Positions 6,971 to 63,480 of a DNA stretch of 64,000 nt are shown piece after piece. Origin of the DNA: an uncultured Verrucomicrobiae bacterium. GTDB taxonomy: Bacteria; Verrucomicrobiota; Verrucomicrobiia; Chthoniobacterales; JAFAMB01. Each line of letters opens with the position of its first letter. Positions within the stretch are counted from its first letter, which is position 1. The translations under genes were made by a program, and so were the position numbers. The notes under the pieces are model-generated. The model saw nothing but the letters and a program-made list of their open reading frames with translations, had not been told where the DNA came from and made no database searches. The stretch covers positions 192,001 through 256,000 of the forward strand of contig CAVXLD010000001.1 in the NCBI GenBank assembly GCA_963762565.1. Reading direction: 5' to 3'.

Positions 6971-7137
6971 GGCTTGAAGCACTGCAACTAAATGCCGTTA
7001 GCCCCAGCCATGTCAGGGGCACTAGAGGAGTGTGTCGGCGAACGGGCGAACAAACTGGTGGGGCGAAGCTCCAGATCTTCCTAAAAAGGTGAACAAGGCG
7101 ATTGCTATTACCGAATCTATAGTAGCCAGCACCGAAC

Positions 7138-8601
7138 CTACCCCGCGTTCAATAACTTCTCCAGCGTCTCCCCGACTAGATTTGGATTTGCTTTCCCTTT
7201 CGAAGCCTTCATCACTTGGCCTTTTAGGAAGTTGATCGCGGCGCCTTTTCCAGCCCGATAGTCTTCGACCGACTTCGGATTCGCTTCGATGACCTGCTGG
7301 CAAAGCAGCTTGATAGCGTCAACATCGCTCTCCTGTTTAAGGCCCTTTGCTTCCACAATCTTTCCCGGGGCTTCACCCGATGCGAACATCTCGGCGAAAA
7401 CTTCTTTCCCCTGTTTGCTGTTGATCTTCCCGTCTTCGATCAGTCCAGTCAATTCCGCGAGATGTTGCGGTTGGATAGGACACTCTCCTACTGATTTCCC
7501 AGCCGTCGCCAATGCACTCAGCAAATCGTTTAGAACGTAGTTAGCCACCGCTTTGGGTCTCTTGGCTCCTTTGGCGGCAGCTTCAAAATAACGTGAGAGC
7601 TCCAAGTCATCCGCCAGCACCCCGGCGTCGTAACTGCTAATCTCGTAATCTCGGATGAAACGCTCACGTTTTGCCCAAGGCAATTCAGGTAGGCGTAAGC
7701 GTACTTCCGGCATGAACACCTCGGTTTTAACGGGGAGCAAATCCGGGTCCGGGAAATATCGGTAGTCATGGGCCGACTCCTTAGTACGCATTAGAAAAGT
7801 CTCGCCTTTGTCGTCGTCCCATCGGCGAGTCTCTTGAGACAATCTCTCTCCACGTTCTAAAGCAGAAATCTGGCGATCGATCTCAAACGCCAAAGCCCTT
7901 CGAACCCCGCTGATCGAATTCAGATTCTTCAACTCGATCTTGGCCCCATACTCGGTCTGATGATGGGGGCGTACCGACACGTTACAATCACAACGCAGCT
8001 GGCCTTTCTCCATATCCGCATCGCTCACATCTCCGTAGATCAAGGCCTGCTTTAGCGACGTGAGATAAGCGAACGCTTCTTCGGGGGATTCTAGGTCCGG
8101 TTGGGAAACAATCTCCATTAGTGGCGTCCCGGCCCGGTTAAAATCGATTCCACTCGTCGTCTCGAAATGGGAATTCTTGGCGACATCTTCCTCTAAATGA
8201 ATCCGGATTAGCCGGACTCGTTTATCCGGATTTTTGATGCCCTTCTGCGCGTCTTTCGGGTAAGCGAGATCGTACAGAGGAACTTCTCCACTCTGGCAAA
8301 TCGGCATATCGTACTGCGAGATTTGATAGTTCTTCGGCATGTCCGGATAGTAGTAGTTCTTACGATCGAATTTGCAGACCGGAGCGATCTCAGATTGGAA
8401 GATCAGGCCGGTCAAGGCTGTCATTTTGAGCGCTTCCAGATTCATCACAGGTAAGGCGCCGGGCAGCCCAAGGCAGGTAGGGCACACATTCGTATTGGGC
8501 TCCGCCCCGTACTCGACCGCGCAACCACAAAACATTTTGCTCCTGGTCTTCAGCTGGACATGCACCTCTAGTCCAATGGTCGCGATGTAATCACTCTTCA
8601 T
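7138..8601 (-). CDS. gatB: Asp-tRNA(Asn)/Glu-tRNA(Gln) amidotransferase subunit B
   Basis: IGLEVHVQL, DRKNYYYPDMPK, DYRYFPDPDL. Confidence 0.98.
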   Translation of the reverse strand: MKSDYIATIGLEVHVQLKTRSKMFCGCAVEYGAEPNTNVCPTCLGLPGALPVMNLEALKMTALTGLIFQSEIAPVCKFDRKNYYYPDMPKNYQISQYDMPICQSGEVPLYDLAYPKDAQKGIKNPDKRVRLIRIHLEEDVAKNSHFETTSGIDFNRAGTPLMEIVSQPDLESPEEAFAYLTSLKQALIYGDVSDADMEKGQLRCDCNVSVRPHHQTEYGAKIELKNLNSISGVRRALAFEIDRQISALERGERLSQETRRWDDDKGETFLMRTKESAHDYRYFPDPDLLPVKTEVFMPEVRLRLPELPWAKRERFIRDYEISSYDAGVLADDLELSRYFEAAAKGAKRPKAVANYVLNDLLSALATAGKSVGECPIQPQHLAELTGLIEDGKINSKQGKEVFAEMFASGEAPGKIVEAKGLKQESDVDAIKLLCQQVIEANPKSVEDYRAGKGAAINFLKGQVMKASKGKANPNLVGETLEKLLNAG

Positions 8602-15945: not shown

Positions 15946-16046
15946 CTGGAGGGGAGCCGCCTGTTTTCACGTTTTTCGATCGCAGCTCGGGATCGGCGAA
16001 AATGTTGCGCGGTCGCGACGCACGCACCAAAGCGGCTCCCCTCCAG
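15946..16046. repeat. family C element (outer arms only)
   Basis: CTGGAGGGGAGCCGC ... GCGGCTCCCCTCCAG. Confidence 0.8.
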
Positions 16047-18598: not shown

Positions 18599-19815
18599 CG
18601 CGATACCGGTGCCGCTGGCTAGTGACAATGCAGGGTGAGCCGCTGGAGAACGGGGCTTTTGCTATTGAAAATAACCGGTTCGTCGAGGTTGGACCCGCGT
18701 CCCAGCTACTAGACAGAGATTCCGGTGGATTTGTCGATCTCGGGGAATGTATCGTCCTGCCGGGTTTGATCAACGCGCATTGTCACCTGGACTACAGCTC
18801 ACTTCGGGGGAGCATTTTGCCGTCTCGAAACTTCCCCCAATGGATCAGCCGGATCAATTCGTTGAAACGGTCACTCAGTGGTGACGATTACCTCGAAGCC
18901 ATGGACCTTGGGTTCGCCGAACTGCGACGCTCAGGGGTCACCTCTGTATTCGATATTGTAGCCACTCCGCAGATCCTGCCCCGTCTAACGCCGCCTCGTA
19001 TCCGAACGTGGTTTTTCCTGGAACTGATCGACATAAGACCGCGTCCTTGGATCGACGATAGCGCTTTTGGTTCGTGGTTATTTTTCGAGCCGAGCGATTG
19101 GCTCGGTGGCTTCGGTCTGAGCCCGCATGCGCCGTACACCGCTTCGGCCGAACTCTATTCAGCTGCGCTAGCTGCTGCACACAATTTCAAAATGCCGTTC
19201 ACGACTCATGTCTCAGAATCGGCGTCGGAATACGAAATGTTTGCCAAGGGCAAAGGTGATCTGTTTGATTTCCTGAGCAAAATGAACCGGCCCATGACCG
19301 ATTGCGGCCGGCTCTCGCCCTTCCGAGCGTTAGCGTTGTCCGGTCTCTTACCGAAAGACGCTTTATTAGTTCATATGAACGAACTGGATGAAGCAGATCT
19401 GGAGATTCTCGGTCGTGACGAGTGGCGGTCCCTTTCCATCGTTAATTGTCCAAAGAGTAGTCGTTTTCTGCATCACCGGCAGTTCCCCATGCAGGCCTTG
19501 CGAGAACGAGGCTTCAACATCTGTCTAGGAACCGACAGTTTGGCCAGCAACGATTCTTTGAATTTATTCGCAGAAATGCGGATGGCGGCACGAAATCATG
19601 ATTTCGTGAGCCCAAAGGAACTGTTAGAAATGGTAACAGTGAGGCCCGCCCGCGCGATTGGTTTGGAGGGATCACTAGGGCAGATCGCACCCGGGTATCT
19701 GGCAGATGCTATCAGTATTCCTTTTGGCGGTGGTTATCGGAGCATTTATGAGGAAATCATTGATTACCGGGACGATGTATTATGGATGATGGTCGATGGA
19801 AAACAGGTAGCTTAG
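18595..19815 (+). CDS. metal-dependent amidohydrolase (MTA/SAH or aminodeoxyfutalosine deaminase-like)
   Basis: PGLINAHCHLD, SPHAPY, THVSES, LGTDSLASN; ATGA overlap with previous gene. Confidence 0.85.
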   Translation: MTRYRCRWLVTMQGEPLENGAFAIENNRFVEVGPASQLLDRDSGGFVDLGECIVLPGLINAHCHLDYSSLRGSILPSRNFPQWISRINSLKRSLSGDDYLEAMDLGFAELRRSGVTSVFDIVATPQILPRLTPPRIRTWFFLELIDIRPRPWIDDSAFGSWLFFEPSDWLGGFGLSPHAPYTASAELYSAALAAAHNFKMPFTTHVSESASEYEMFAKGKGDLFDFLSKMNRPMTDCGRLSPFRALALSGLLPKDALLVHMNELDEADLEILGRDEWRSLSIVNCPKSSRFLHHRQFPMQALRERGFNICLGTDSLASNDSLNLFAEMRMAARNHDFVSPKELLEMVTVRPARAIGLEGSLGQIAPGYLADAISIPFGGGYRSIYEEIIDYRDDVLWMMVDGKQVA

Positions 19816-20666
19816 CCCTGGCGGCTCTGCTGACGTTCTTAGTGCAAGGCGCGAGATCCCAGGATTTGTCTTTGGCCGCCCAAAGCGCAGCCGTGGTTGA
19901 TTCTTACTCCGGCGAATTTCTTTACACGAAAAACGCCGATGCCAAAGAATACCCGGCGAGCTCCACCAAGATTTTGACGGCGCTGATCGTGATCGAGGCT
20001 GGCAATCTTGACCAAGTGGTAACGGTGGCTCCGGAAGATACCAAGGTCGAACCTAGCAGCCTCGATCTGAAACCGGGACAACAATTTACGCGGCGCCAAC
20101 TACTCTTCGGCATGCTGCTCAAGAGCGCCAATGACGTTGCCATGTGCTTAGCCAGAGATAATGCCGGTTCCGTCCCTGCGTTCGCCGAAAAGATGAATTT
20201 GCGGGCAGCCGAACTAGGAGCAACCTCCAGTCATTTTGTTAATCCACACGGCCTCCATGATCCCAATCACTATACGACGGCTCATGATCTGGTCCTCATC
20301 GCGCGCGCAGCGATGCAACAGCCGCTGTTCCGTCAGATTGTTTCAACTATCTACTACACTTGGCGAACTCCCAACGGCGAAGTGGACCAGCTACGCAACC
20401 ATAACCGGTTACTCCGGCATTTCGCAGGCTGTAACGGGCTGAAAACCGGTTATACCCGGGCCGCACAGCAGGTTCTGGTGAGCTCCGCTTTGCGGGGTGG
20501 TCACGAGGTGGTCGCGGTTGTGCTTCATACCGACAAACCCGGCATCTGGGTCGATAGCAAGACCCTCTTGACCTACGGACTTATTAAGGTGGGGTGTCCA
20601 GCGGAGGATATTGTGGACACCACTGACCGGGTCGACGAGCCGGGCGATGCGGACGAAGGGAAGTGA
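19782..20666 (+). CDS. D-alanyl-D-alanine carboxypeptidase (S11)
   Basis: ASSTK (SxxK), SAN, KTG; NPHGL. Confidence 0.93.
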   Translation: MDDGRWKTGSLALAALLTFLVQGARSQDLSLAAQSAAVVDSYSGEFLYTKNADAKEYPASSTKILTALIVIEAGNLDQVVTVAPEDTKVEPSSLDLKPGQQFTRRQLLFGMLLKSANDVAMCLARDNAGSVPAFAEKMNLRAAELGATSSHFVNPHGLHDPNHYTTAHDLVLIARAAMQQPLFRQIVSTIYYTWRTPNGEVDQLRNHNRLLRHFAGCNGLKTGYTRAAQQVLVSSALRGGHEVVAVVLHTDKPGIWVDSKTLLTYGLIKVGCPAEDIVDTTDRVDEPGDADEGK

Positions 20667-20703: not shown

Positions 20704-20988
20704 TTGGTGGGGCGAGGCTCCCGAACGGAAGATGTACTTTCACAGCGCCCCTCGCTGAACCTCATGAGTTGTCGGCAACACCGATGGACCGCCGAGCCGT
20801 CGGTCTGCAGCGTTTCAATACCCCGTTAGAATGAAGAACGTGCGTAGCAGATGCTTCAGATGCGCTGATTAGTTGTACGCGCTGGGACGCGGCTCGGCAC
20901 GCCAATCGGCGAAACCTCGCGCGCAGTTTCGCAAAATCGAGCCTCTTTGTCGGAGATTTTAGGTCACTCGGGAGCCTCGCCCCACCAA
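20704..20988. repeat. family A split-REP element
   Basis: perfect 21-bp terminal IR TTGGTGGGGCGAGGCTCCCGA; inner GCCGAGCCG 20791 and CGGCTCGGC 20890. Confidence 0.9.
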
Positions 20989-23317: not shown

Positions 23318-23558
23318 TTGGTGGGGCGAGGCTCCGGAACTACGATTTTGTGTTCACAGGGGAGTTGATGCACTTAACCCAGCGCTCACAATTTCGATAC
23401 GCTGCCGAGCCGCTGTTCTGTCGTGTGGCCGGCACCTTATTCCATGGGAGATCAGGGGAATCGGCTCGGCGGTCCTTCCGGCCTAACGTTGCGTCCGGCG
23501 TCAAATCATCGAGGTCTCCGATATAGCGTCCGGTCTTTCGGGAGCCTCGCCCCACTAA
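23318..23558. repeat. family A split-REP element
   Basis: TTGGTGGGGCGAGGCTCC ... GGAGCCTCGCCCCACTAA; inner motifs at 23404 and 23462. Confidence 0.9.
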
Positions 23559-23697: not shown

Positions 23698-25329
23698 ATG
23701 TCTTTCTTCTCCTGGTTCAGGTCGAAATCGGATAAATCAGAGCAAGATGAGTTGGAGTTGAAGGGTTCGAACGAGTCTCCAGAAAGGCAGGCTGATCCCG
23801 AACACCCTCCATTTCAATCGTCGCGCGTACCCCCGCCGCGTCTCCGGGAAACAGTCCCCGGAAGTAGGTCAAAAACGGCATCACCGGTTGAGCCAAGTAC
23901 CGAGACCAAAGAAGGCTTCCGTCGCCCGGTACGAGCGACCGTGGACGTACCGTTGCAAGCGTTGCTCTTACAACTGCCACCGGAAGTAACTAAATCTAAC
24001 ATTGATATCGACCCAAAACGTCGGGTGCAAATTCCCCGTAAATCGGTGCAAATTGATGAAGCGCACCAGACAGCAAAGGTTACTTTCGCTACCCTTTTTG
24101 CATCCTGCCCAGAAATTTTCTCGGCGCCAATTGCTCCTCTCGATCAGCGAACCCTCGATTTTAATCTCCCTGCTTGGGAAAGATCAAGATCAGCGGACTC
24201 AGGCGAACGAACGACCAGCCCAACCGCGAAGACGAAGAGCGAATCGCCAGCTCCACCCGATCGGTTGACTCCTGTCGCTGGCGAAAGGTTGCGTGGGGAA
24301 AAACCACCGATTCCCAGCCCTGAGAAGCCCGACGAAGCGCACCTGGGAGGTGCTGCCCGAAACGGTTCTGAGGTCCCGAAAACCGTGCGCGTGGCACTCG
24401 GCCCAATCATCAAGAATCTGCCGCCAGAGCTGCAGCCTTCGGAACCAAACGCGCTCGCTAACAAACCGGGGGCCACAATCGAACTCCCGTTGGCATTGAT
24501 TAACTCTCAACTCGCAAATGGCCGGGTAACAATCCCCTTTTCAGCGTTGTTGCAATCGTTGCCGGAAGACGTGAAGAGCCATTTTCCACAGGCCGATACG
24601 ACTGCGGAAGTTACCATCCCGATTAAAGAAATTCTGCAAGACTATCCGCAGGATCTATTGCGTCCACGAGCGGATCAAGAACCAGAAGAGGTTCTACCAG
24701 CAATATCGACCCCTTTCACCGGTCCAGCGAAAGAGGATACCGAACGTTTTGCCCACGCTCCAGAACAGCCAGAAACCGAGAAGCTGGCTACCGACAGTCA
24801 TCAACTCGAGCTTATCGAACACCCGGTAACACCAAGCGATTCACCACAGCCTGTATCTAAGGAATCATCGGTTGCCGAGGCGCCTTCGGTTGTCGAGGAA
24901 AAACCGGCCACAGAGGCAGCACCAACCGTTCAAGCCAAGCCGGCACCTAACTTCTCAGCACTGCAGTCTGTATTTTTAACGGATGAAGCATTGGACTTGA
25001 ACAAGGTTGTTCAAAAAGTGGGCCAGCTTCCGGGGATAAATTCTGCCCTGTTTTTTGCAGCAGACGGCAGTCTCGAAGGTGAACCAGAAAAACTGGGCCT
25101 TACTCAATCATCGGTGCAATTGCTTTCCAGCCTTACCCACGAGATTGGACAACGCGTCGAGAATTTGGGGTTCGGTCAAATCGAAACCGTCACGCTCGGT
25201 TGGAAGCGGGAACTGGTCAGCGTTTTCACCAGGGGCGAGTCCGGCTTTGTCGTCCGTCATGAAAAGAGGCCTTTCAGGCCGGGGGTGCGTGAGAAGATCT
25301 GTCTGGTTCTCAGCCACATCTGCAGCTGA
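23698..25329 (+). CDS. large protein with internally repeated domain and C-terminal Roadblock/LC7 (MglB-like) domain
   Basis: C-terminal LPGINSALFFAADG...LGFGQIETVTL...VSVF pattern; directly upstream of mglA. Confidence 0.65.
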   Translation: MSFFSWFRSKSDKSEQDELELKGSNESPERQADPEHPPFQSSRVPPPRLRETVPGSRSKTASPVEPSTETKEGFRRPVRATVDVPLQALLLQLPPEVTKSNIDIDPKRRVQIPRKSVQIDEAHQTAKVTFATLFASCPEIFSAPIAPLDQRTLDFNLPAWERSRSADSGERTTSPTAKTKSESPAPPDRLTPVAGERLRGEKPPIPSPEKPDEAHLGGAARNGSEVPKTVRVALGPIIKNLPPELQPSEPNALANKPGATIELPLALINSQLANGRVTIPFSALLQSLPEDVKSHFPQADTTAEVTIPIKEILQDYPQDLLRPRADQEPEEVLPAISTPFTGPAKEDTERFAHAPEQPETEKLATDSHQLELIEHPVTPSDSPQPVSKESSVAEAPSVVEEKPATEAAPTVQAKPAPNFSALQSVFLTDEALDLNKVVQKVGQLPGINSALFFAADGSLEGEPEKLGLTQSSVQLLSSLTHEIGQRVENLGFGQIETVTLGWKRELVSVFTRGESGFVVRHEKRPFRPGVREKICLVLSHICS

Positions 25330-25362
25330 CTGCGGTTTGCAAGAACCTAGGAAGTTTGGCGA

Positions 25363-26007
25363 ATGCCGATCATAAATTACGCGAGCAAAGAAATTCAGTT
25401 CAAGATCGTCTATTACGGGCCGGCCCTGAGCGGCAAAACGACTACCATTGCCTATATCCATTCGAGGTTGCCGGCTGCGTTTCGAGGAGATTTGGTGTCG
25501 TTGGCCACCGCGGCAGACCGCACCCTCTTTTTCGATTTCTTGCCGGTTGAGGCAGTGATCTTGCAAGGCTTCAAAACCAAATTCCAGCTCTACACCGTTC
25601 CGGGGCAGGTGGTGTACAATACAACCCGGCAGTTAGTCTTACGCAGCGTTGACGGCATCGTATTTGTGGCCGATTCGCACTGGGACAAGATCCACGAAGA
25701 TGTGGAGAGTTTCCGAAATCTCGAGGAAAACCTTCGCAAACAGCATCTCTCATTGGACGAGATCCCGTATGTTCTGCAGTACAACAAACGTGACTTGCCC
25801 GATGCGGCTCCGGTGTCGTACTTAGAATTTTTGCTGAATAACCGGCGCCGACGCGCCCGAAGTTACGAAGCGATCGCAACGAAAGGACGGAGCGTCTTCG
25901 CTGCATTAGATGCCGTGACCCAAAGCGTTCTTAACCGGTTCATTCAAGAGAATCACCTTCTCAGGCCGATGCCGGCCAGAGAGAGCGCTGGGGCGGGGAG
26001 AGTGTGA
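25363..26007 (+). CDS. mglA: MglA-family small GTPase
   Basis: KIVYYGPALSGKTT, RTLFFDFLP, YTVPGQV, QYNKRDL. Confidence 0.92.
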   Translation: MPIINYASKEIQFKIVYYGPALSGKTTTIAYIHSRLPAAFRGDLVSLATAADRTLFFDFLPVEAVILQGFKTKFQLYTVPGQVVYNTTRQLVLRSVDGIVFVADSHWDKIHEDVESFRNLEENLRKQHLSLDEIPYVLQYNKRDLPDAAPVSYLEFLLNNRRRRARSYEAIATKGRSVFAALDAVTQSVLNRFIQENHLLRPMPARESAGAGRV

Positions 26008-26020
26008 ATGGTGATTGGTG

Positions 26021-26235
26021 ATTGGTGGGGCGAGGCTCCCGAAAGGCCTTTTAGTCTTATCAAGCGGGTCAGTTCTCACCCGGAGATTATGTCCGCTACG
26101 CCGATAAACCCGCCGAGCCGTTGGTCCACGCGAACCATGGCTCGGCAGCGTTTCGGCATAGGTCGTATCGTGGTGAGGATCTTCCCCCTGCCTTGCGATC
26201 GTCATCAGGCCTTTCCGGAGCCTCGCCCTACCAAT
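26021..26235. repeat. family A split-REP element
   Basis: ATTGGTGGGGCGAGGCTCCCGAAAGGCCT ... AGGCCTTTCCGGAGCCTCGCCCTACCAAT; preceded by GTGATTG units. Confidence 0.9.
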
Positions 26236-35972: not shown

Positions 35973-36178
35973 TGGAGGGGAGCCGCTTTGGAATTTTGCG
36001 GATCCGTAAGTTGGCAGCAAGCGGCTCCCGGGAACGGTCCAGGGCTGGGCAGCTCTGTGACGGCTTCAAATCGATGCTTGCAACCGGGTTCTTCCGCCGT
36101 GCCTCACATTGGGTAATTCCCGGGAGCCGCTTGCTACCAACCTACAGATCTGCCACGCTACAAAGCGGCTCCCCTCCA
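35973..36178. repeat. REP doublet family C
   Basis: GGAGGGGAGCCGCTTTG...AAGCGGCTCCCGGGAA / TTCCCGGGAGCCGCTT...CAAAGCGGCTCCCCTCCA. Confidence 0.88.
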
Positions 36179-37338: not shown

Positions 37339-37630
37339 TTAGTGATTAGTGATTGGCGATGGCGCTGGTCGGGCGAGGCTCCCGAAAGAACTAAAGTCTC
37401 TAACGAAGATCCAGACGTTTCGGCCTGAAAGAGTTTGTTAGGCCGATCGGTGTGCCGAGCCGTGGTTCCGCGCGTAACCCGGCTCGGCGCGTTGCTAGAA
37501 GTAGCATGCCTTCTTAATTCGGAATGCGAAGGGAGATGGAAAATCACAGAGTCTTTCGGGAGCCTCGCCCTACCAACGGCGTCTCATCCACCATCACCTC
37601 TCACCAATCACCAATCACTTCTCACCTTCT
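37335..37630. repeat. family A element (37366-37576) nested in GTGATTR/YAATCAC arms
   Basis: GGGCGAGGCTCCCGAAAGA ... TCTTTCGGGAGCCTCGCCC; inner motifs at 37454 and 37480. Confidence 0.88.
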
Positions 37631-42339: not shown

Positions 42340-42468
42340 TGTGGAGCGCTGCCTCGCTTGCGAGGCCGTGGTGAGCAGGGCAAGATGCTGTGTCATACGC
42401 CATTTTTTCGATGCTAGGTGACGTCGCCCTGCTTACCAACGGCCTCGCAAGCGAGGCAGCGCTCCACA
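42340..42468. repeat. REP doublet family D
   Basis: TGTGGAGCGCTGCCTCGCTTGCGAGGCCGTGGTGAGCAGGG ... mirrored arm; second copy inside 61168-61486. Confidence 0.88.
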
Positions 42469-45101: not shown

Positions 45102-45307
45102 GGAGGGGAGCCGCTTTATCGTTAGGCAGCTCTGTAATTCGGCAGCAAGCGGCTCCCGAGAACGGCCCCGGATGATGCAGGTCTATTGGGCAGCCATATC
45201 GACCAGCTTGGAACAGAGCCGCTGGGCAAATATTTACGCTGGGTTATTCCCGGGAGCCGCCTGCTGCCAACTGATAGGACTGCCACACTACAAAGCGGCT
45301 CCCCTCC
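45102..45307. repeat. REP doublet family C
   Basis: same four-motif architecture and length as 35973-36178. Confidence 0.88.
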
Positions 45308-52932: not shown

Positions 52933-53180
52933 TGGTGGGGCGAGGCTCCGGAATAACCTGAAATGGCAAACGGAGAACTCGATTTAGTCTAAACCGAGAT
53001 CGCGCTTCGCCAATGGGCGCGCCGAGCCGATCCCAGCGTGTGGCAGCCGACGATCGGTCAGGGGGGGTGGAACATGCTGGGACCGGCTCGGCGCGTTTAG
53101 CGGCATCGCCCACGATAGATTGGCAAACATTGACGTCCTCCGCTCGAGCAAAGCGGCCGTTCGGGAGCCTCGCCCCACCA
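52933..53180. repeat. family A split-REP element
   Basis: TGGTGGGGCGAGGCTCC ... GGAGCCTCGCCCCACCA; inner motifs at 53021 and 53084. Confidence 0.9.
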
Positions 53181-60062: not shown

Positions 60063-60159
60063 TTGGCGGGGCGAGGCTCCCGCAGGACCCTGCGCGACGC
60101 CAGGGTTTAAGGCAATTCGATTCCGGATGTAATGTTAGGCCGAAACAAGCGCCGAGCCG
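60063..60159 (+). repeat. family A half-element
   Basis: TTGGCGGGGCGAGGCTCC-N70-GCCGAGCCG, no right arm. Confidence 0.75.
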
Positions 60160-63329: not shown

Positions 63330-63480
63330 TTGGTGAGCGAGGCTCCGGCACGACAAAATGCATTGCCAAACCCAGCGATAGGCCCGGCTCGGCGAGCTGT
63401 GCAGCGTTGCACCGGTCAAGTAGGGGCAGCATAGCGGCTTTGCGAAAATCGATCGGTCGTTCGGGAGCCTCGCCCTACCA
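63330..63480. repeat. family A element with shortened left arm
   Basis: GCGAGGCTCC ... CGGCTCGGC-N70-GGAGCCTCGCCCTACCA. Confidence 0.8.

What the first reader, a model, noticed from the sequence alone, without database searches (positions are those of the whole stretch)
20704..20988. Family A: a REP-like palindrome split by a variable spacer of fixed ~70-nt length
Seen: seven elements (20704-20988, 23318-23558, 26021-26235, 37366-37576, 52933-53180, half 60063-60159, 63330-63480) share GTRGGGCGAGGCTCC-spacer-GCCGAGCCG-variable centre-CGGCTCGGC-spacer-GGAGCCTCGCCCYAC. My counts of the spacer are 69, 68, 72, 71, 71, 70 nt on the left and 72, 70, 70, 70, 71, 70 nt on the right. Spacer sequences differ strongly between copies and are only patchily complementary within a copy. 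A weak GCCGA motif lies just before the inner box. The centre varies from about 17 to 90 nt. Known: REP/REPIN elements have a GTAG/GGAG foot plus a short hairpin and are handled by RAYT HUH tyrosine transposases. Inference: GGCTC and GAGCC are the two halves of such a hairpin held ~70 nt apart. Length conservation without sequence conservation suggests a molecular ruler, such as a bipartite protein site, a folded RNA/ssDNA domain, or fixed-size sequence capture. I do not know of a described element with this layout.
Basis: partly seen in the sequence, partly recalled or inferred. Interest (0 to 1): 0.82.

Follow-up and report, generated by a model that had tools for sequence, protein, structure and literature searches.

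The report
Long-loop REP repeats with their transposase
These are copies of a known kind of small bacterial hairpin repeat (REP/REPIN, copied by a dedicated single-strand DNA transposase) in a soil bacterium, unusual because the 4-base hairpin loop has been widened by about 70 inherited, freely drifting bases whose length stays nearly fixed.

Summary
Observation confirmed. 455 of 567 outer boxes in the genome have the inner box 62-80 nt away (415 at 69-73); 183 inverted pairs. The cognate RAYT gene lies elsewhere in this genome between two such arms; it is syntenic and under purifying selection in congeners. Its nearest relatives in sister genera carry the same REP in compact 20-nt form. Spacers are inherited and drift; they are not captured. 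Length looks constrained: 549 of 574 arms in five congeners are 68-74 nt, and the spread is about half a neutral simulation. A second RAYT lineage in the same genus also reached 68-70-nt loops. A decayed REP head before the inner box points to origin from tandem REPs. The ruler is unidentified (RAYT geometry or an SSB wrap are candidates). Verdict: new variant of the REPIN-RAYT system. The scan noted this before, elsewhere in this genome and in other genomes.

The parts
20705..20799 (+). Element 1, left arm: long-loop REP (foot, stem half, TCC, 69-nt spacer, stem half)
20890..20987 (-). Element 1, right arm (72-nt spacer); centre 90 nt
23319..23412 (+). Element 2, left arm (68-nt spacer)
23462..23557 (-). 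Element 2, right arm (70-nt spacer); centre 49 nt
26023..26120 (+). Element 3, left arm (72-nt spacer)
   Evidence: one contig of another run joins the flanks with 490 other bases in place of 232
26138..26233 (-). Element 3, right arm (70-nt spacer); centre 17 nt
37366..37462 (+). Element 4, left arm (71-nt spacer; foot GTCG)
37480..37575 (-). Element 4, right arm (70-nt spacer); centre 17 nt; between convergent ORFs
52933..53029 (+). Element 5, left arm (71-nt spacer)
53084..53180 (-). Element 5, right arm (71-nt spacer); centre 54 nt
60064..60159 (+). Solo arm (70-nt spacer; foot GCGG)
63330..63346 (+). Element 7, remnant of left arm (outer box with one mismatch; rest deleted)
63385..63480 (-). 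Element 7, intact right arm (70-nt spacer)
7056..7148 (+).

Best explanation
Family A is the REPIN population of one RAYT (REP-associated HUH/Y1 tyrosine transposase) of a soil Verrucomicrobiota genus. Each arm is one REP: foot GT(A/G)G, stem GGC-GA-GGC paired with GCC-GA-GCC, and the ancestral loop TCCY opened after TCC by ~70 nt. Two arms, feet outward, with a centre of 17-110 nt form the unit that is duplicated. SHOWN: anatomy, register, cognate gene (G000:C10:17378-17833) between two arms, compact form in sister genera, inheritance of spacers with the whole element. INFERRED from characterised TnpA-REP enzymes: the RAYT binds the folded single strand, cuts at a dinucleotide chosen by the foot, and transfers the strand to a new site near gene ends. 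INFERRED (about 0.55): the long form began as a head-to-tail REP array that refolded first half with last half, the inner halves then decaying. INFERRED (about 0.7): only arms with a 64-75-nt spacer are copied or kept, because the weak stem needs a protein to close it. The ruler is the RAYT complex itself or a host single-strand binding protein; I cannot tell which.
For: RAYT: 152 aa, H-L-H at 65-67, Y122, NF047646 84.5 bits over cut-off 80, best PDB hit 4ER8 TnpA-REP; arms on both sides in G000 and G002, downstream arm and the same uvrA-like neighbour in G003 and G004; pS 0.74, pN 0.10 between G000 and G002. Nearest RAYTs in sister genera (59-62% identity; L176, L178, L180) carry the 20-nt compact REP with the same or nearly the same boxes; across 105 RAYT rows the automatic label was short for 52, mid 13, long 10, none 30. 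Close paralogues share centre (0.82) and mate arm (20 of 33 under 0.3 distance) but not flanks (0.38); spacer 0.157 against box 0.048 differences per site in 54 pairs. Length: SD 1.65 observed against 2.1-2.9 simulated at the matching divergence; congeners 549 of 574 at 68-74, 22 at 64-67, 3 at 75-83, none at 2-30 or 38-63. Unrelated families in G000 have loops of 69-71 (184 of 425 family B heads) and 67-71 (15 of 43 family C heads); one clade of long-loop RAYTs is rejected, p-AU 0.0026. Decayed head at the predicted offset before the inner box, p 0.0002, rank 1 of 35. Stem forms in only 4% of the ensemble of 396 isolated arms, while the compact copy folds in this register. 147 of 211 stop-facing ends lie within -5..60 nt of a stop.
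Against: No activity assay. Indels are not compensated in close pairs (67 of 139 opposite), so short-term drift of length looks neutral; the simulation is crude (star tree, uniform rates) and gives only a 1.3-1.8-fold excess in SD. The other three remnants predicted by a three-unit array are not significant (p 0.09, 0.11, 0.20). The long-loop group was named after I saw the first tree, which weakens the AU test; the tree is the quick method. In a whole element the ~20-bp outer inverted repeat should outcompete the REP stem (inference). No arm pair above 0.94 identity, so present activity is not shown. Ends of the moved unit are not defined: similarity of close pairs fades over about 18 nt outside the foot.
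Confidence: 0.8

Rival explanations
1. Same REPIN-RAYT system, but the length is a frozen accident: the founder had 70 nt and small indels have not yet spread it.
For: No indel compensation (67 of 139); with half the measured indel rate the simulated SD is 2.1 against 1.65 observed; compact arrays with period 32-36 exist beside 6 of 21 RAYT loci with arrays, which would give 52- and 86-nt hairpins without any ruler.
Against: Same 68-74 peak in six species whose synonymous sites are near saturation at the RAYT; no arms of 38-63 nt in five congeners; the central spacer is near random (0.432 against 0.421); a subfamily with a different spacer consensus still sits at 64-67.
Confidence: 0.25
2. Length is set at the level of the whole element in RNA or single-stranded DNA (outer stem, symmetric internal loop, inner stem), kept by the host as a 3'-end signal.
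For: Left and right spacer lengths correlate (rho 0.37); elements lie near stops and are enriched between convergent ORFs (56 of 182 against 483 of 2076 gaps).
Against: Arms flanking the RAYT gene and 90 solo arms keep the same length; mates are barely complementary (0.545); orthologous sites in congeners hold other families or nothing; the correlation can come from subfamilies; no Rfam match.
Confidence: 0.12
3. The spacer is the worn remnant of a target-specific element that inserted into the REP loop.
For: A ~314-bp element with sub-terminal inverted repeats sits exactly after TCC in 4 arms, with CTCC repeated; other small hairpins sit in family B and D loops.
Against: The spacer shows a decayed REP head, not inverted ends; no pairing between spacer ends beyond one or two possible pairs.
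Confidence: 0.12
4. Fixed-size capture of foreign or flanking DNA (CRISPR- or integron-like).
For: Every spacer is unique; single contigs of other runs differ at three of four elements.
Against: Spacers fall into families and share a consensus; they are copied with centre and mate; element 1 has no match in phages or plasmids; strong in-genome matches that I could place fall on broken arms.
Confidence: 0.02
5. An ordinary old MITE with ~95-bp terminal inverted repeats moved by a DDE transposase.
For: Inverted arms, variable centre, dispersed copies.
Against: The arms flank a RAYT; mates are only 0.545 alike, unlike terminal repeats; boxes are ~99% kept while the spacer is near random.
Confidence: 0.02

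Closest known systems
REPINs and RAYTs of Pseudomonas fluorescens SBW25 (Bertels & Rainey 2011, PMC3337134, passages read; bioRxiv 10.1101/2021.07.10.451892, passages read)
   Same: Two inverted REPs, hundreds of extragenic copies, single-copy syntenic RAYT; spacers of discrete lengths (GI mostly 69-72 bp) with no two alike; new types formed from halves of neighbouring elements.
   Different: There the variable stretch lies between two complete REPs and keeps a hairpin; here it lies inside each REP loop, is unstructured, and the element is 210-300 bp.
GTAG-tagged REP families (Di Nocera et al. 2013, PMC3733652, passages and parts 1 and 5 of 8 read; figures and supplements not seen)
   Same: GTAG/GTGG foot, head-to-head dimers, presence in Verrucomicrobia, stems broken by unpaired GA in one family.
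   Different: Loops listed as 2-20 bp (up to 27 when self-complementary); here 72-76 nt.
Group 2 TnpA-REP/REP of E. coli (PDB 4ER8; Corneloup et al. 2021, PMC8266576, introduction and passages read)
   Same: Foot directly at the stem, a mismatch zone in the stem, upper part needed for structure but free in sequence; single-strand cutting.
   Different: E. coli REPs are 29-37 nt; the protein is only distantly related (E 6e-7); no length rule for the loop is reported in the passages read.
TnpA-Y1 subclass 2.4 long and double-foot REPs (Quentin et al. 2018, PMC6006769, passages read)
   Same: Long REPs with three G-C pairs at the stem base and a GT[AG]G foot.

Membership tests
REP / REPIN-RAYT | GTAG or GTGG tetranucleotide directly 5' of the stem | tested here: met
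   G 97%, T 96%, A/G 99%, G 99% in 455 arms; register
REP / REPIN-RAYT | Short GC-rich imperfect stem | tested here: met
   GGC-GA-GGC/GCC-GA-GCC; compensatory variants; compact copy folds so
REP (classical definition) | Short loop (2-20 nt, up to 27) and total length 20-50 nt | tested here: not met
   Loop 72-76 nt, arm ~94 nt; limits from PMC3733652 and PMC8266576
REPIN | Two REPs in inverted orientation, many copies | tested here: met
   183 pairs, 366 of 455 arms
REPIN | Whole element folds as a continuous hairpin | tested here: inconclusive
   Boxes pair, but mate spacers are 0.545 alike against 0.508 between elements; whole elements were not folded
REPIN | Extragenic, near gene 3' ends | tested here: met
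   147 of 211 ends within -5..60 nt of a stop, crude ORF calls
REPIN-RAYT | Cognate RAYT gene flanked by inverted copies of the same REP | tested here: met
   G000:C10, G002
RAYT | HUH motif, catalytic Tyr, family model | tested here: met
   H65-L-H67, Y122; NF047646 84.5 over 80; not among the 12 PF01797 matches
RAYT | Single copy, syntenic, purifying selection | tested here: met
   One copy in G000; same neighbour in G002, G003, G004; pS 0.74, pN 0.10; not found in G001 and G005 (89% and 81% complete)
REPIN-RAYT | RAYT cuts and transfers the single-stranded REP | not testable with these tools
   needs an in vitro assay
MITE of a DDE transposase | Near-identical terminal inverted repeats over their length | tested here: not met
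   mates 0.545 alike
MITE of a DDE transposase | Target-site duplication | not tested
   no clean empty site was found
Spacer-capture systems (CRISPR-like) | Spacers newly acquired from foreign DNA | tested here: not met
   inherited with the element; one element searched, no phage or plasmid match
Structured RNA family | Conserved, covarying fold of the variable part | tested here: not met
   no Rfam match; MFE z -0.12 in 100 spacers; only one or two possible pairs next to the stem

The most novel reading that the evidence does not exclude
A host-set single-strand ruler shapes REP evolution: one SSB tetramer (65-nt or 35-nt mode in E. coli, PMC9917605) wraps the unstructured loop and lets the weak stem close for the RAYT, so separate RAYT lineages in this genus converged on ~70-nt and ~34-nt loops. 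These would be REPs that need a host protein to be licensed for copying.
Probability: 0.2. Interest if true: 0.75.

Novelty: new variant of a known kind. Interest (0 to 1): 0.45.

Why it matters
How RAYTs copy REPINs is still open (PMC8266576 calls the dissemination mechanism unresolved). This family gives a natural pair: near-identical boxes with a 4-nt loop beside RAYTs of sister genera, and with a 74-nt loop here, the proteins being about 60% identical. That makes loop length, SSB dependence and substrate swaps directly testable. It also shows that REP surveys restricted to short loops miss whole families, and that unique fixed-length spacers are not by themselves a sign of sequence capture.

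Tried and rejected
Pfam PF01797 scan of the genome missed the cognate RAYT; the RAYT-like genes it found belong to other repeat families. Register GGCTC/GAGCC: it has the higher computed probability in isolated arms (0.090 against 0.044) but is broken by the homologous variants; rejected on the comparative evidence. Pairing between spacer ends (GGCC motifs): no excess over permutation. A pair between spacer position 1 and -2: 124 of 233 against 78 expected after thinning, but an unrelated pair (1, -9) also scores z 6.0 and 18 arms of other genomes give 7 of 18, so only suggestive. Rule 'hairpin = 20 + n x 34': weakened, since family B 57-nt and family D 33-nt loops come from inserted small hairpins and three of four remnants are not significant; my first z-scores were not calibrated, as control motifs reached z 9-13. 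Spacer BLAST against the genome: 218 hits outside intact arms for 73 of 455 spacers, against 40 for reversed spacers; I saw 40 lines, and placed several strong ones on broken arms, others unchecked. Compact GTRG form in 300 other genomes of the phylum: none (the pattern excluded a GGAG foot, which one search shows is common). Rate of spacer change from orthologous sites: congeners too distant, sites hold other elements. Empty sites from public runs: contigs only, no clean empty site; differences at elements 2, 3 and 4 rest on single contigs of depth 5-9. Viral contigs were not searched. No structure or complex was predicted.

Full report
Observation. The seven elements and all twelve spacer counts match the sequence. 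The window is C1:192001-256000 of a 6.1-Mb, 54% GC genome; titles of the nearest RAYT loci read Verrucomicrobiota and Chthoniobacterales, and the runs that hold the stretch are mostly soil. The genome has 567 outer boxes; 455 have the inner box at 62-80 nt, 415 at 69-73. 183 inverted pairs exist, with centre classes near 19, 48, 77 and 97 nt. Boxes are ~99% conserved; spacers are 0.508 alike against 0.471 shuffled, none above 0.94. No Rfam match.

Distribution. The exact split pattern occurs in 8 of 41 genomes: all six of the genus (23-368 hits) and two other genera of the family with 3 hits each. In the five congeners 549 of 574 arms have 68-74 nt, 22 have 64-67, 3 have 75-83; two compact copies exist; none at 2-30 or 38-63; 31-37 was not tested. 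At five orthologous sites the congeners hold other repeat families, unrelated family A spacers or nothing. Single contigs of other runs, about 98% alike in the genes, differ at elements 2, 3 and 4; this is a weak hint of turnover.

The transposase. A RAYT of another repeat family in this genome led to a RAYT in G002 flanked by two family A arms, feet outward. Its orthologue lies in this genome at C10:17378-17833, also between two arms and beside the same uvrA-like gene. It has the HUH motif and Tyr122, passes NF047646 and hits PDB 4ER8; synonymous sites are near saturation against G002 while pN is 0.10.

The fold. RAYT homologues elsewhere carry a foot plus a 19-22-nt hairpin. Several have the family A boxes joined by one base (L062, L066, L068, L070, L073, L079), as do the closest RAYTs of sister genera (L176; near-identical in L178, L180). 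Variants change the three bases after GGC-GA together with their partners, which fixes the stem as GGC-GA-GGC/GCC-GA-GCC and the loop as TCCY. Family A is this REP with ~70 nt added after TCC. So the long hairpin is unlikely to form unaided.

The spacer. In 54 close pairs spacers differ at 0.157 per site and boxes at 0.048; centres are 0.82 alike, flanks 0.38; mates are close in 20 of 33. The element is copied whole and the spacer drifts. Element 1 has no phage or plasmid match (one element only). A decayed REP head lies at the predicted place before the inner box (p 0.0002), which suggests a head-to-tail array refolded first half with last half; three further predicted remnants are not significant. 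Compact arrays with period 32-36 occur at 6 of 21 RAYT loci that have arrays, of 106 examined, so two steps would give ~70. One G001 element has one compact and one long arm.

Is length selected? For: SD 1.65 against 2.1-2.9 in a neutral simulation at matching divergence; sharp bounds in six species; loops of 69-71 and 67-71 nt in families B and C, whose RAYTs are a separate lineage (p-AU 0.0026, group named after seeing a first tree). Against: no indel compensation (67 of 139), a crude simulation, and other sizes in families B (34-35) and F. I put selection on length at about 0.7. The ruler is not identified. E. coli SSB binds 35 or 65 nt per tetramer (PMC9917605, passages); that a full wrap brings the two ends together is my recollection. 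The match to 34 and 70 is suggestive only.

Known kinds. REPINs of P. fluorescens already show fixed spacings (69-72 bp) with unique sequence, but between REPs and with a hairpin (PMC3337134, passages). GTAG families have loops of 2-20 bp, up to 27 (PMC3733652, passages and parts 1 and 5; figures and supplements not seen and may list the compact family). In E. coli the upper stem-loop has a non-specific structural role (PMC8266576, introduction and passages). Quentin et al. searched loops of 2-5 nt (PMC6006769, passages). Four searches aimed at REP literature or the taxon, listed no paper on a long-loop REP; the library lacks most subscription journals.

Earlier scan notes. I set my reading before the first look-up. 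Several notes on this genome reach the same verdict, and notes on other genomes (two named as Poribacteria) report loops of 70-72 nt; I did not test those. Verdict: it works like, and belongs with, the REPIN-RAYT system, but fails the short-loop criterion of a classical REP: a new variant of a known kind.

Noticed in passing
G000:C1, C11, C12 (four places; e.g. arm at C1 minus-strand offset 1203465): A ~314-bp gene-less element with sub-terminal inverted repeats is inserted in four family A arms exactly after TCC, with CTCC repeated; it resembles an IS1111-type MITE (label recalled, not tested).
   Followed up: partly
G000 genome; window 15948-16044, 35974-36177, 45102-45307 (family B), 42343-42465 (family D): At least five more REP families, each with its own RAYT in the genus; loops of 34-35, 57-58 and 69-71 (B), 67-71 (C), 2 or 33-35 (D), 4 (E), 48-50 (F).
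   Followed up: partly
G000 family B and D arms: The 57-nt family B loop is the 34-nt loop plus a ~23-nt hairpin; the long family D loop holds a different ~32-nt hairpin.
   Followed up: partly
L170 (G001:C232): A hybrid element with one compact arm and one long arm.
   Followed up: no
L048 (G000:C5:277226-277249): The single compact copy in this genome is unpaired and appears to lie in coding-like sequence.
   Followed up: no
G000:C4:78555-78979 (L010, L046, L047): A frameshifted RAYT of family C.
   Followed up: no
G001-G005, G000 (e.g. G005:C408): A family A subfamily with a different spacer consensus and 64-67-nt spacers.
   Followed up: no
L150:site 1 and L152:site 3 (G003, G005): Elements with family A outer boxes at both ends but a different, self-complementary interior and no inner box.
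   Followed up: no
window 19800-19866: Contigs of two other runs carry 137 other bases in place of 65 near the start of the ORF 19782-20666.
   Followed up: no
window 23698-26007: MglA-like GTPase gene next to a 543-aa proline-rich ORF; already noted by the scan.
   Followed up: no
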